Of a stretch of DNA of 38,183 bases, positions 9,763 through 11,936 are shown in pieces. A program made the position numbers and the translations under genes. The DNA comes from a virus. Lineage: Duplodnaviria > Heunggongvirae > Uroviricota > Caudoviricetes. Under the pieces are notes generated by a model. The model saw only the letters and a list, made by a program, of their open reading frames with translations, ran no database searches and was not told where the DNA came from. How positions within the stretch are numbered: the first letter of the stretch is position 1; every line of letters starts with the position of its first letter. Where the stretch lies: the IMG/VR virus record IMGVR_UViG_2713896906_000008, one strand, 5' to 3'.

Positions 9763-10308
9763 ATGAATCATGTAATGTTAGATATAGAAACATTGGATGT
9801 TGAAAAAACAGCTTATATCCTTTCAGTTGGTGCGGCTTTTTTCGTGCCGGAGACTGGCGAGATTGGTCCGGGTTTCTATCAAGTTATTTCGCTTGATCAT
9901 GAACAAGCAGGCAGAACCATTGCCCCCTCTACTGTAAAGTGGTGGATGAATCAAAGTACTGAAGCTAAAAACGAAAATTTTGATGGCACTAAGGACCTTT
10001 TAGAGGTTCTGAATGAATTTGTGGCATTTATTCTTCATAATCGTACTGGCCGAGTAAAAGTGTGGGGAAACGGGAAAGAGTTTGACTGCACGATCATGCA
10101 TCATGCCCTGTTACAGGCGGGTCTGGATTGCCCATGGTCATTCAGAGATACTCTTGACGTTAGAACCATCTTAGCACTTGGTGAAAGCAAAGGAATTTTT
10201 TCTCATGCTGATAAAAATTTCACTGGCATTAGGCACACAGCATTCGATGATGTTTTATTTCAGATCGCACAGGTTTCTCACATCTATATGAATTTAAATA
10301 AAAAATAA
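9763..10308 (+). CDS. DEDDh-type 3'-5' exonuclease-like protein (DnaQ-like fold)
   Basis: Exo I-like DIETL, Exo II-like NGKEFDCTIMHHAL, Exo III-like HTAFDD; first ATG in frame at 9763 (track start 9754 is TTG). Confidence 0.7.
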   Translation: MNHVMLDIETLDVEKTAYILSVGAAFFVPETGEIGPGFYQVISLDHEQAGRTIAPSTVKWWMNQSTEAKNENFDGTKDLLEVLNEFVAFILHNRTGRVKVWGNGKEFDCTIMHHALLQAGLDCPWSFRDTLDVRTILALGESKGIFSHADKNFTGIRHTAFDDVLFQIAQVSHIYMNLNKK

Positions 10309-10323
10309 ATATAGGACTTAGCT

Positions 10324-11235
10324 ATGGATTGCTTAGATGTAACCTATTGGACTGAGCTAGATGTTTTCGCACAGTATCCTGTTGGTGCTCGCTCTAAGGC
10401 ATTGGTTATTTCCCCTGATGTTGCCCCCCATGGTATCAAAGCATCGTGGCCGTATCTTTTTAAGAGAAGTATTAAAAAATACCCAGATCAATTTTGGTGT
10501 GAGATCGTTGCCTACAGGATTGGATTGCAGCTTGGTTTTAATGTCCCCAAAGCAGTTCCTTCGTTAAAGACTAATGATTTGGGGCATACGTTTTGCGGGG
10601 CCCTCATTGAGTGGTTTCATCATAAAGATTATGAGAAATTTGCTCCCGCTGGTGATTACTTTGTTCGAAGAGATCCAAATTTTGATCGTGAGAAAGGAGC
10701 TAAGCATTCCATTGAAGGGCTGAGGATTATCGCGAAAGCTCTTAAAGTTGACTATGTTGAGTGGTTGGAGAATATGGCTCTCTTTGACGCAGTAATAGGT
10801 AATACAGATAGACATCAAGAAAACTGGGGGTTTATCTTCTCCCCTTTAACCAGCGAGTGTCAGCTTGCACCATTTTTCGATAATGGTACGAGCTTATGCT
10901 ACGAACGCTTTCCGGAACATGTTGCTGATTGGACCGATCATAGACTCAGGGAGCATGTTAGCCGGGGAAAGCATCATTTGCGTAAGACTCTGGGCAAAGA
11001 TGAGTATCAGAGATTAGGTCATTTAGAGTTAATCAAAGAACTTTGTGATAAAAAAGAAGAATTAAAACAGCGGGTAGCTGAAAGACTGGCTCGTTTGAAC
11101 CATGACTTTTGGGACTCAACTTTTGCGGAGTTGACGGAAATAAACTGCCCTGTTCCGCTGACTAGAGAACGTGCTGCATGGATTGTTCGTGTAACAAACA
11201 TGCGTATTGAACTGATTAAAGGTGTTACTTCATGA
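10324..11235 (+). CDS. HipA-family serine/threonine kinase core (HipT-like, lacking HipA N-terminal subdomain)
   Basis: Catalytic-loop signature VIGNTDRHQENWGF (GNxDxHxxN of HipA_C) and LGFNVP matching HipA LGLNVP; AGGA SD. Confidence 0.8.
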   Translation: MDCLDVTYWTELDVFAQYPVGARSKALVISPDVAPHGIKASWPYLFKRSIKKYPDQFWCEIVAYRIGLQLGFNVPKAVPSLKTNDLGHTFCGALIEWFHHKDYEKFAPAGDYFVRRDPNFDREKGAKHSIEGLRIIAKALKVDYVEWLENMALFDAVIGNTDRHQENWGFIFSPLTSECQLAPFFDNGTSLCYERFPEHVADWTDHRLREHVSRGKHHLRKTLGKDEYQRLGHLELIKELCDKKEELKQRVAERLARLNHDFWDSTFAELTEINCPVPLTRERAAWIVRVTNMRIELIKGVTS

Positions 11236-11936
11236 CTATCTTAATAGAAAAAATTCCCATGCCAAGTAGGCTCTTACTGACATGGCAACCGACCGACGGC
11301 GGCTCTCGCTATGTCGTTGGTGAACTTCTTCAAGATGAGTCTGAAGGCTACGAGTTTAATTATCTTACGGATAGCAAAGATTTTGCTAAAGCTGGTGATA
11401 AAGGCTTTCACGGTTTTCCTGCTTTTGACATAAAAGTTACGACTCATCGCAAAGACGTTATGCAAACCTTTTCAAGAAGGTTACCCTCCAGGAAAAGAGA
11501 AGATTTTGCCGATTACTTGCTGACGTTTCGTCTTCCTGCTGATTTTAGAGAGAATGACTTCGTTTTGCTCGCTTGTACTGGCGGAAAAGTGGCTAGTGAT
11601 GGTTTTTATTTTGTCCCAGACTTGTCTTCTATTCGGCCACCTTTTGATTATGTCATGGAGGTCGCCGGAACGAGACACATGATTAAGGAAGGGCGTCTAG
11701 CTCTTGACGAGATATCAATTGGTGATGAAGTCATATTGCGCAATGAAGATACCAATACTGTTGATCCGCTGGCCATATTAGTAACGAAAAACGACAATCA
11801 TCTAGGATATGTCAACAAGGCATTGTGCGCCGCATTACGAGATCTTAGTAAAAACCATGATATCAGTGGAGTGGTCGTACGTAAAAATGGCTCTTCGGAT
11901 AGGCCTTTGATTTATGCAAAAGTATCTGTTAGATGA
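11232..11936 (+). CDS. kinase-coupled partner; N-terminus HipA-N/HipS-like, with C-terminal extension
   Basis: ATGA overlap with the kinase gene; LLLTWQPTDGGSRYVVGEL and FVLLACTGGKVASDG resemble HipA N-terminal segments (LVTWMNNQRVGEL; FDLLSEIGRDSVGA). Confidence 0.6.
   Translation: MTILIEKIPMPSRLLLTWQPTDGGSRYVVGELLQDESEGYEFNYLTDSKDFAKAGDKGFHGFPAFDIKVTTHRKDVMQTFSRRLPSRKREDFADYLLTFRLPADFRENDFVLLACTGGKVASDGFYFVPDLSSIRPPFDYVMEVAGTRHMIKEGRLALDEISIGDEVILRNEDTNTVDPLAILVTKNDNHLGYVNKALCAALRDLSKNHDISGVVVRKNGSSDRPLIYAKVSVR

What the first reader, a model, noticed from the sequence alone, without database searches (positions are those of the whole stretch)
9763..11936. Split HipA-type kinase module with a DEDDh exonuclease partner in the A-to-cos variable region
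Three co-oriented, tightly packed genes sit where P2 itself carries the tin/old exclusion genes. Gene 2 (303 aa) has the HipA catalytic loop (VIGNTDRHQENWGF) and an LGFNVP segment matching HipA, but lacks the HipA N-terminal subdomain. Gene 3 (234 aa, ATGA-coupled at 11232-11235) starts with a HipA-N-like segment (LLLTWQ...VVGEL), so the kinase looks split like HipT/HipS, but with inverted gene order and an extra ~100-aa C-terminal domain on the HipS-like protein. Gene 1 has all three DEDDh exonuclease motifs. HipA-family kinases are known to arrest translation by phosphorylating aminoacyl-tRNA synthetases, which would suit an abortive-infection or superinfection-exclusion role. I do not recognise this three-gene composition as a described system.
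Basis: partly seen in the sequence, partly recalled or inferred. Interest (0 to 1): 0.85.

Follow-up and report, generated by a model that had tools for sequence, protein, structure and literature searches.

The report
Prophage HipA-like kinase, HIRAN partner, exonuclease
A P2/186-type E. coli prophage carries a three-gene cassette (3'-5' exonuclease, short HipA-like kinase, and a partner that joins a kinase-inhibitor fold to a DNA-end-binding HIRAN domain); it is real but already catalogued as an untested candidate toxin-antitoxin or phage-defence module.

Summary
The three co-oriented genes are real and correctly placed (9763-10308, 10324-11235, 11232-11936), between replication gene A and cos. 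Gene 1 is a DEDDh exonuclease (Pfam Rv2179c-like; nearest solved relative T4 DexA). Gene 2 is a short HipA-superfamily kinase with intact catalytic motifs.

The split-kinase reading is right. The novelty claim is not. The kinase/partner pair is hipIN of Gerdes et al. 2021 and PADLOC candidate PDC-M03. Rousset et al. 2022 list this exact arrangement, with the same protein accessions, in their P2-hotspot table. They also cloned the fused variant ("Exonuclease + HipA") and did not list it among validated defences.

New here:
- The exonuclease is absent from about 97% of hipIN loci. Where present, it co-diverges with the kinase and HipN (rho 0.91-0.94), not with the phage backbone (0.33).
- It also occurs with them outside P2.
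- Exonuclease-bearing cassettes carry a LexA box (9 of 17 versus 0 of 82).

Most likely mechanism (inferred): HipN holds the kinase off, HIRAN senses DNA 3' ends, and the exonuclease removes that signal. No function has been demonstrated.

The parts
9360..9375 (.). LexA (SOS) box, TACTGTAAATATAAACAGTG with flanks. It lies upstream of a 56-aa ORF and the cassette.
   Evidence: It is the only exact CTGT-N8-ACAG in the window. Equivalent boxes lie upstream of most P2-borne exonuclease-kinase cassettes.
9419..9589 (+). 56-aa backbone ORF between the LexA box and the cassette. It has no family hit and is context only.
   Evidence: It is shared at 93% DNA identity with prophages that lack the cassette.
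9596..12187 (+). The exchangeable cassette as a whole: upstream non-coding DNA, three genes, and a 3' non-coding tail.
   Evidence: blastn against the E. coli 23AR0998 prophage shows this stretch replacing about 330 bp that hold a DinI-like gene.
9763..10308 (+). Gene 1: DEDDh 3'-5' exonuclease, 181 aa, Rv2179c-like / DexA-like. Catalytic D7, E9 (9781-9789), D108 (10084-10086), H158 and D163 (10234-10251).
   Evidence: Pfam PF16473 at 4.8e-50 and phrog_255 at 3e-60. Motifs are invariant. The profile matches T4 DexA 8KEL at 4.8e-15.
10324..11235 (+). Gene 2: short HipA-superfamily Ser/Thr kinase (HipI type), 303 aa. Gly-rich loop PVGARSK (10378-10398), catalytic DRHQEN (10807-10824), Mg-binding DNG (10879-10887).
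11232..11936 (+). Gene 3: HipN-type partner, 234 aa. HipS-like domain at about aa 10-135 (11259-11636). HIRAN domain at about aa 138-234 (11643-11933).
12245..12271 (+). Terminator-like hairpin followed by UUUU, downstream of the cassette and just before cos.
   Evidence: Fold energy -21.5 kcal/mol, z -3.87, and 0 of 200 shuffles fold as well.
12318..12336 (.). cos-like 19-mer GGCGTGGCGGGGATACGAG. It marks the right limit of the A-to-cos slot.
   Evidence: 14 of 19 bases identical to P2 cosR. Homology to SF-173-type prophages ends at 12337-12344.

Best explanation
This is a mobile cassette carried in the A-to-cos accessory slot of a 186/P2-type prophage. It encodes a hipIN-type kinase toxin and sensor-antitoxin pair, plus an accessory 3'-5' exonuclease.

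Proposed mechanism:
1. The short HipA-like kinase is the effector.
2. [quoted passage not shown] This role is shown for HipS with HipT in HipBST, and is inferred here from the fold and from natural kinase-HipS-HIRAN fusions.
3. The HIRAN domain of HipN monitors free DNA 3'-OH ends or short 3' fragments.
4. When such ends accumulate, the kinase is released. The source could be replication, packaging or degradation intermediates of an infecting phage, or DNA damage.
5. The kinase then phosphorylates an essential translation component, and growth stops. The result would be abortive infection or exclusion.
6. The DexA/Rv2179c-type exonuclease degrades the same class of ligand. It would therefore set the threshold or switch the signal off.
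7. In P2-borne cassettes the operon sits behind a LexA box, so it is probably derepressed during the SOS response.

Shown here: gene content, folds, intact catalytic motifs, conserved gene order, co-inheritance of the exonuclease with the kinase and HipN, and the LexA-box association.

Inferred: toxicity, neutralisation, the HIRAN ligand, the kinase target, the direction of the exonuclease's effect, and any anti-phage phenotype.
For: Identity of the parts:
- Pfam and PADLOC hits.
- Catalytic residues are invariant.
- HIRAN residues that line the HLTF 3'-end pocket align with conserved HipN positions: R148, N175, D178 and G192-Y193.

Kinase and HipN as an obligate pair:
- The kinase is followed by HipN in all 78 of the 80 genome loci whose sequence extends far enough to show it.
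- Natural fusions of kinase, HipS and HIRAN occur across Enterobacterales. Some carry a precomputed Couple_hipA hit.

Exonuclease linkage:
- All 16 unique P2 A-to-Q kinase loci carry the exonuclease immediately upstream.
- Pairwise identities among 20 unique triads give exonuclease versus kinase rho 0.91 and exonuclease versus HipN rho 0.94. Exonuclease versus gene A gives only 0.33.
- Backbones with 84% identical gene A carry cassette alleles that are only 39% identical.
- The exonuclease and kinase trees are congruent.
- Triads also occur outside P2, next to IS elements (L010; L231).
- Against an empty-site prophage, the cassette boundaries enclose all three genes.
- In Actinomycetes and Clostridia a different DEDD family, the NrnC-like diDNases, lies next to HipA plus HIRAN genes (PMC11706625).

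Defence context:
- Neighbours of exonuclease-less hipIN loci include type I restriction-modification genes, integrases and an SNF2 helicase.
- Gerdes et al. proposed the same DNA-end-sensing abortive-infection model.

SOS link:
- An exact LexA box lies within 500 nt upstream in 9 of 17 exonuclease-bearing modules and in 0 of 82 exonuclease-less ones. The background rate is 0.03 per kb.
- In phage 899 the box lies inside the cassette.
Against: - No experiment shows toxicity, neutralisation or defence for any hipIN or hipL module in the searched literature.
- Rousset et al. cloned the fused 'Exonuclease + HipA' variant with its native promoter. They list it only among additional tested systems, not among validated ones, after a panel of eight phages.
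- About 97% of hipIN loci work without any exonuclease, so it cannot be a core component.
- Fused kinases placed downstream of cI also lack the exonuclease.
- All P2-borne triads share descent. The counts for exonuclease and LexA-box association are therefore not independent events.
- The kinase is structurally closer to H. pylori CtkA than to HipA or HipT. An aminoacyl-tRNA synthetase target is only an analogy.
- LexA repression is an odd fit for a defence system that must be present before infection.
Confidence: 0.5

Rival explanations
1. The cassette is an SOS-linked growth-arrest or DNA-damage-tolerance module, not an anti-phage system. After LexA cleavage the operon is expressed. HIRAN reads 3' ends at damaged or regressed forks, and the kinase halts translation to give a dormancy or persistence-like state. 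The exonuclease trims the ends to end the arrest. The benefit goes to the lysogen, and therefore the prophage, during genotoxic stress, or it helps time prophage induction.
For: - LexA boxes lie upstream of the window's cassette and of most P2-borne cassettes, and none lie upstream of exonuclease-less hipIN modules.
- In sister prophages the same slot holds a DinI-like SOS modulator.
- The prophage has a 186-type CI without a peptidase domain, so the LexA-controlled operon after gene A is its SOS-responsive unit. This link rests on established 186 biology and was not tested here.
- HipA-family kinases are known persistence factors (established knowledge; PMC8262856).
- The negative phage assay of Rousset et al. 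fits this reading.
Against: - Most hipIN loci have no LexA box (0 of 82). They sit beside restriction-modification genes and on mobile elements, which is typical of defence islands.
- The P2 A-to-cos slot is a documented hotspot for anti-phage genes.
- A toxin expressed together with prophage induction would harm the phage's own burst.
Confidence: 0.2
2. There are two independent systems that merely travel together. Gene 1 is a stand-alone phage or defence exonuclease, for example a DexA-like 'HREX' enzyme that degrades modified phage DNA, or a phage recombination or scavenging nuclease. Genes 2 and 3 are a self-sufficient hipIN pair.
For: - The exonuclease family is widespread in phages without any kinase. 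It occurs in 605 phage records, and 74 of the 80 best viral relatives have no kinase nearby.
- hipIN works without the exonuclease in about 97% of loci.
- An E. coli DexA homologue, EcD, is reported to protect against T4 on its own (PMC12153337).
- The nearest solved relative of gene 1 is T4 DexA.
Against: - The exonuclease co-diverges with the kinase and HipN, not with the phage backbone (rho 0.91-0.94 versus 0.33).
- Triad exonucleases group apart from other phage exonucleases.
- Gaps are tiny (15 nt here, and an 11-nt overlap in L231), and the order is conserved through 38-53% divergence.
- The triad stays intact in non-P2 contexts.
- In the passages of Rousset's P2 table that were read, DUF5051 is always followed by HipA_C or HIRAN.
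- The two DexA residues for 5hmC recognition, W152 and D169, align with an invariant Arg and a non-conserved position.
Confidence: 0.15
3. The kinase and HipN form a plain addiction (post-segregational killing) module that stabilises the prophage or the cassette. It has no sensing role, and HIRAN serves only for autoregulatory DNA binding.
For: - Toxin-antitoxin modules classically stabilise mobile elements (PMC8262856).
- The module lacks a HipB-type repressor, so the only DNA-binding domain available for autoregulation is HIRAN.
- The pair is found on prophages, on integrative elements and next to IS elements.
Against: - HIRAN domains bind DNA 3' ends rather than operator sequences (PMC8262856; HLTF structures matched).
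- The pocket residues are conserved in HipN.
- Covalent fusion of toxin and antitoxin in most P2 variants is incompatible with killing by differential antitoxin decay.
Confidence: 0.1

Closest known systems
hipIN module and its fused form hipL (Gerdes, Baerentsen and Brodersen 2021, mBio, PMC8262856; Hip-tree clade XI)
   Same: It has a short core kinase without N-subdomain 1, followed by a protein with a HipS-like domain plus a HIRAN domain, in the same gene order. The fused kinase-HipS-HIRAN form occurs in sister P2 phages. Those authors already proposed the DNA-end-sensing, abortive-infection hypothesis.
   Different: Their description has no exonuclease gene and no LexA box. It is phylogenetic only, and Table 1 lists no experimentally analysed member for clade XI. 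Placement of the window's kinase in their tree was not tested here.
'Exonuclease + HipA' candidate of the P2 hotspot (Rousset et al. 2022, Cell Host Microbe, PMC9122126; plasmid pFR108, Table S2B; arrangement 'DUF5051 + HipA_C + HIRAN' in Table S5)
   Same: It occupies the same hotspot and has the same gene families and order. Table S5 lists the same protein accessions as this locus. The exonuclease sequence printed for pFR108 matches the exonuclease of phage 899 (L002), which is 41% identical to gene 1.
   Different: The cloned variant has the kinase, HipS and HIRAN fused in one 547-aa protein, 42-47% identical to genes 2 and 3. It was not among the validated systems. The split variant in this window was catalogued but not tested.
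PADLOC phage-defence candidate PDC-M03 (A plus B)
   Same: Both profiles match at 4e-36, over nearly full length, on adjacent genes.
   Different: It is a two-gene candidate with no exonuclease component and no validation. Gene 1 matches no PADLOC model.
HipBST (E. coli O127, Legionella)
diDNase - HipA - HIRAN clusters of Actinomycetes and Clostridia (Mortensen et al. 2025, NAR, PMC11706625)
   Same: A DEDD-superfamily 3'-5' exonuclease lies directly next to HipA-domain and HIRAN-domain genes, on mobile elements and prophages. The authors state that the functional link is still open.
   Different: That nuclease is an NrnC-like enzyme specific for DNA dinucleotides. Gene 1 is a DEDDh Rv2179c/DexA-type enzyme with no NrnC-type Pfam hit. 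The association therefore looks convergent rather than homologous.
T4 DexA and the E. coli DexA homologue EcD ('HREX', Kang et al. 2025, NAR, PMC12153337)
   Same: It is the same exonuclease family by profile (E 4.8e-15 to PDB 8KEL), with all DEDDh catalytic residues present.
   Different: Gene 1 is 181 aa against 227 aa for DexA. DexA residues W152 and D169, needed for 5hmC DNA, align with an invariant Arg and a variable position. Gene 1 is genetically tied to a kinase module, whereas EcD is described as acting alone.

Membership tests
HipA-superfamily kinase (Pfam HipA_C) | Profile match above the curated cut-off | tested here: met
   HipA_C scores 40.3 bits against a cut-off of 30.5, E 3.6e-10, over residues 21-212.
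HipA-superfamily kinase (Pfam HipA_C) | Catalytic loop D-x-H-x-x-N, Mg-binding Asp and Gly-rich loop | tested here: met
   D162, R163, H164, Q165, N167, D186, N187, G188, and also G21, R23, K25, are invariant in 26 homologues.
HipA-superfamily kinase (Pfam HipA_C) | HipA/HipT kinase fold | tested here: met
   [not shown]
HipA-superfamily kinase (Pfam HipA_C) | Ser/Thr kinase activity that is toxic through phosphorylation of a translation factor | not testable with these tools
   This needs expression, phosphoproteomics and mutants. No published test was found.
hipIN module (Gerdes 2021) | Short kinase lacking HipA N-subdomain 1, with the Gly-rich loop near the N terminus | tested here: met
   The protein is 303 aa with the Gly-rich loop at residues 19-25. 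The paper gives 279-321 aa for these families.
hipIN module (Gerdes 2021) | [quoted passage not shown] | tested here: met
   [not shown]
hipIN module (Gerdes 2021) | C-terminal HIRAN domain on the same protein | tested here: met
   [not shown]
hipIN module (Gerdes 2021) | Kinase falls in the HipI subclades of Hip-tree clade XI | not tested
   Reference HipI sequences from their Table S1 were not retrieved. The assignment rests on architecture.
HipBST | Tricistronic hipB-hipS-hipT with an HTH HipB and a free-standing HipS of about 100 aa upstream of the kinase | tested here: not met
   The cassette has no HTH gene, because gene 1 is an exonuclease. The HipS-like domain is downstream of the kinase and fused to HIRAN.
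PADLOC PDC-M03 | Adjacent genes matching the PDC-M03A and PDC-M03B profiles | tested here: met
   Both match at about 4e-36 and 122.9 bits, over near full length.
DEDDh exonuclease, Rv2179c-like / DexA-like | Family profile match and the Exo I, II and III acidic residues with His | tested here: met
   PF16473 scores 170 bits. D7, E9, D108, H158 and D163 are invariant. The profile matches T4 DexA 8KEL at 4.8e-15.
NrnC-like diDNase (Mortensen 2025) | NrnC homology with the HHAxFD(L/I)xF Exo II consensus and a C-terminal Tyr | tested here: not met
   Only PF16473 and a weak RNase_T hit were found, with no NrnC-type family. Exo II here reads WGNGxxFD.
HREX (EcD-type DexA homologue acting on 5hmC DNA) | Conserved equivalents of DexA W152 and D169 | tested here: inconclusive
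   In the HMMER alignment W152 aligns with the invariant R128 and D169 with a variable position. An invariant Trp (W125) lies three residues away, and at about 20% identity the alignment could be shifted.
Validated anti-phage defence system | Demonstrated protection against at least one phage | not testable with these tools
   The only reported test is of the fused variant pFR108. It appears in the 'additional tested systems' table, not the validated one.

The most novel reading that the evidence does not exclude
The exonuclease is an integral signalling component. HipN's HIRAN domain would read free DNA 3' ends or very short DNA fragments as a danger signal, and a DEDD exonuclease would erase that signal. 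It would play the part that ring nucleases or phosphodiesterases play in nucleotide-based immunity. This logic would have been assembled twice, independently: with Rv2179c/DexA-type enzymes in P2-like phages of Enterobacterales, and with NrnC-type diDNases in Gram-positive bacteria. In the phage-borne version the whole unit is licensed by the SOS response. LexA repression would then explain why the only published assay saw no defence.
Probability: 0.2. Interest if true: 0.7.

Novelty: already known. Interest (0 to 1): 0.4.

Why it matters
As a gene set it is not new. It has names (hipIN, PDC-M03, 'Exonuclease + HipA'), and this exact locus sits in a published hotspot table. What remains open is function: no HipA-HIRAN module has been shown to do anything.

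This E. coli prophage version is a tractable place to test three questions:
- Does a HIRAN domain act as a bacterial DNA-end sensor that controls a kinase toxin?
- Why do two unrelated DEDD exonuclease families keep turning up next to it?
- Does LexA control explain the earlier negative defence assay?

The co-inheritance and LexA-box results obtained here turn those questions into concrete experiments.

Tried and rejected
- **Sequence tests for HipS-likeness were weak.** The window protein gave no Pfam Couple_hipA hit at E up to 1. Only the fold comparison settled the point.
- **HipBST membership was rejected.** There is no HipB, the order is reversed, and HIRAN is fused.
- **NrnC-like diDNase membership for gene 1 was rejected**.
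- **The exonuclease as a P2 backbone gene was rejected.** The cassette boundaries and the weak correlation with gene A argue against it.
- **The consensus promoter scan of 9200-13600 was uninformative.** It found 8 sites against 10.5 expected. A perfect TATAAT at 9667-9672 has no acceptable -35 element, so no cassette promoter is claimed.
- **Literature searches found no experimental work on hipIN, hipL or PDC-M03**. One search was swamped by unrelated acronyms.
- **Inter-domain contacts in the fused model could not be measured.** Model coordinates are not exposed to scripts.
- **NCBIfam gave nothing above cut-off**.
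Full report
**1. Is it there?**

Yes. Three + strand ORFs lie at 9763-10308, 10324-11235 and 11232-11936. A 15-nt spacer separates genes 1 and 2, and genes 2 and 3 share an ATGA start/stop overlap. 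The GC content is about 41%, against 52-59% for the phage backbone.

Profile hits are unambiguous:
- Gene 1 matches Pfam Rv2179c-like at 4.8e-50.
- Gene 2 matches HipA_C at 40.3 bits, above the cut-off of 30.5.
- Gene 3 matches HIRAN at 32.6 bits, above the cut-off of 24.7, on residues 140-219.

The window is a 186/P2-type prophage of E. coli. Five complete genomes carry the region at 99.6% identity or more, for example strain SF-173 next to rcdA. RefSeq annotates the three genes there as 3'-5' exonuclease, HipA domain-containing protein and HIRAN domain-containing protein. The cassette lies between replication gene A (6852-9266) and a cos-like 19-mer at 12318-12336. P2 carries orf91, tin and old in this slot.

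**2. What the three proteins are**

*Gene 3.* It was modelled with 36 homologues, giving pLDDT 95.2 and pTM 0.90.
- Sequence-level evidence for the HipS-like domain is weak. A fused homologue does carry a precomputed Couple_hipA hit.
- HIRAN positions that align with the HLTF 3'-end pocket are conserved: R148, N175, D178 and G192-Y193. The role of those HLTF residues is taken from established knowledge of HLTF, not tested here.

*Gene 1.* It is a DEDDh enzyme. Its nearest solved relative is PDB 8KEL/8KEN at 4.8e-15. These entries are T4 DexA, a 3'-5' DNA exonuclease (PMC12153337).

**3. It is already described**

- Gerdes et al. 2021 defined hipIN as a short HipI kinase followed by HipN, where HipN is a HipS-like domain plus HIRAN. 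They defined hipL as the three domains fused. They proposed that HIRAN senses phage DNA ends and releases the kinase to cause abortive infection. No member had been analysed experimentally.
- PADLOC holds the pair as candidate PDC-M03A/B, and both profiles match at 4e-36.
- Rousset et al. 2022, Table S5, lists the arrangement 'hypothetical + DUF5051 + HipA_C + HIRAN + ...'. The accessions are WP_021523854, WP_050515810, WP_021523856 and WP_021523857, the same as in SF-173.
- Their Table S2B ('additional tested systems') contains pFR108, 'Exonuclease + HipA', from E. coli TA255. Its exonuclease sequence matches that of phage 899 (L002), and its second protein is the fused kinase-HipS-HIRAN.
- That system was cloned with its native promoter and challenged with eight phages. 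It is not among the validated systems.
- Mortensen et al. 2025 found that about a third of 93 NrnC-like diDNase genes in Gram-positive bacteria sit next to HipA and HIRAN genes. They left the link open.
- I found no later experimental paper.

**4. Is the exonuclease part of the system?**

This was the main open point.

*Evidence that it is not a core component:*
- In 80 genome loci found with a kinase profile, the kinase is followed by HipN in all 78 that extend far enough. Only two have the exonuclease.
- The other neighbours are variable: type I restriction-modification subunits, integrases, an S24 repressor and an SNF2 helicase.
- The exonuclease family is common in phages without any kinase.
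- Fused kinases placed after cI in Aeromonas-type prophages have no exonuclease.

*Evidence for real linkage where it occurs:*
- Every kinase locus between a P2-type gene A and the portal gene has the exonuclease immediately upstream. That is 16 of 16 unique loci, spanning several alleles that are 38-53% identical.
- Among 20 unique triads, exonuclease identity tracks kinase identity (Spearman 0.91) and HipN identity (0.94). It tracks gene A only weakly (0.33).
- Backbones with 84% identical gene A carry cassette alleles that are only 39% identical.
- Neighbour-joining trees of the exonuclease and the kinase are congruent. All exonuclease-linked kinases fall in one terminal clade. These trees have no bootstrap support.
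- Against an otherwise 93-98% identical prophage, window 9596-12187 (all three genes) replaces a 330-bp DinI-like segment.
- Against P2, the phage 899 cassette spans L002 4240-6774.
- The triad also occurs outside P2: next to groESL and an IS3 element in a Shewanella genome, and next to an IS element in a metagenome contig, where the genes overlap by 11 nt.

My conclusion is that the exonuclease is a lineage-specific accessory partner that is inherited with the kinase and HipN. It is not a core component, and it is not a chance neighbour.

**5. A LexA box**

The only exact CTGT-N8-ACAG in the window is at 9360-9375 (TACTGTAAATATAAACAGTG). It lies upstream of a 56-aa ORF and the cassette.
- Near-consensus boxes lie between gene A and the exonuclease in 13 of 17 P2 triads examined.
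- Within 500 nt upstream of the first module gene, 9 of 17 exonuclease-bearing modules have an exact box. None of 82 exonuclease-less modules does. The background rate is 0.03 per kb.
- In phage 899 the box is 158 nt upstream of the exonuclease, inside the cassette. P2 has no such box after gene A.
- The box also lies within the pFR108 insert, L002 4130-7011.

LexA repression in unstressed MG1655 is therefore a possible reason for the negative assay. That is an inference. These loci share ancestry, so the counts are not independent events.

**6. Mechanism**

The best-supported scheme has the following steps:
1. The kinase is the effector.
2. [quoted passage not shown]
3. HIRAN acts as a 3'-end sensor.
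4. The exonuclease removes the HIRAN ligand.
5. In phage-borne versions the operon is derepressed by the SOS response.

The parts and their linkage are shown. Every functional step is inferred. The rivals are an SOS-linked growth-arrest module, two independent systems (with the exonuclease as a DexA/HREX-type stand-alone enzyme), and plain addiction. I weigh them in the structured fields.

**7. Verdict**

The novelty claim is wrong. This is a catalogued, named and still unvalidated candidate. Interest is moderate. It rests on the unexplained and apparently convergent pairing of a DEDD exonuclease with a HIRAN-kinase module, and on the testable LexA explanation for the negative assay.

For scale, the HipN family has about 240 clusters at 50% identity with E up to 1e-30.

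Noticed in passing
window 9360-9375; also L002 4276-4291 and other triad loci: There is a near-consensus LexA box upstream of the cassette. Equivalent boxes accompany exonuclease-bearing P2 cassettes but none of 82 exonuclease-less hipIN modules. The box lies inside the published pFR108 insert.
   Followed up: partly
window 12245-12344: A strong terminator-like hairpin (12245-12271) is followed by a cos-like 19-mer (12318-12336). Homology to SF-173-type prophages stops at 12337-12344, right at cos. The A-to-portal hotspot is therefore two independent slots, one on each side of cos.
   Followed up: partly
window 12488-13484, - strand: The second slot, between cos and the portal gene, holds a 216-aa predicted membrane protein (phrog_36961, no Pfam family). 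It also holds three short overlapping ORFs rich in proline runs (PPPPPP). This content is shared with E. coli 23AR0998 but differs in SF-173.
   Followed up: no
window 1134-2859, - strand: A low-GC (31-36%) gene pair lies between the integrase and the CI repressor. It matches PADLOC candidate PDC-M18B (5e-24) and PDC-M18A (2e-36) and has no Pfam hit. This is a second candidate defence pair in the same prophage.
   Followed up: partly
window 21500-23500 (ORF 21934-23199, - strand): A 31% GC island sits inside the late (lysis/tail) region and carries a 421-aa ORF on the opposite strand. It has no Pfam or PADLOC hit and looks like another inserted cargo gene.
   Followed up: partly
L229 5001-6617 and L230 1851-3482: In Aeromonas-type P2-like prophages the fused kinase-HipS-HIRAN gene sits directly downstream of the cI repressor, before the integrase, without an exonuclease. 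The exonuclease-free form is therefore in the lysogeny operon, and the exonuclease-bearing form is in the SOS/A-to-cos slot.
   Followed up: partly
Rousset et al. 2022, Table S5 (same P2 hotspot, other E. coli strains): The same hotspot also carries 'DarT + hypothetical + HIRAN + Macro + DinI' arrangements. A HIRAN protein therefore also accompanies a DarTG-like module.
   Followed up: no
[not shown]
   Followed up: no
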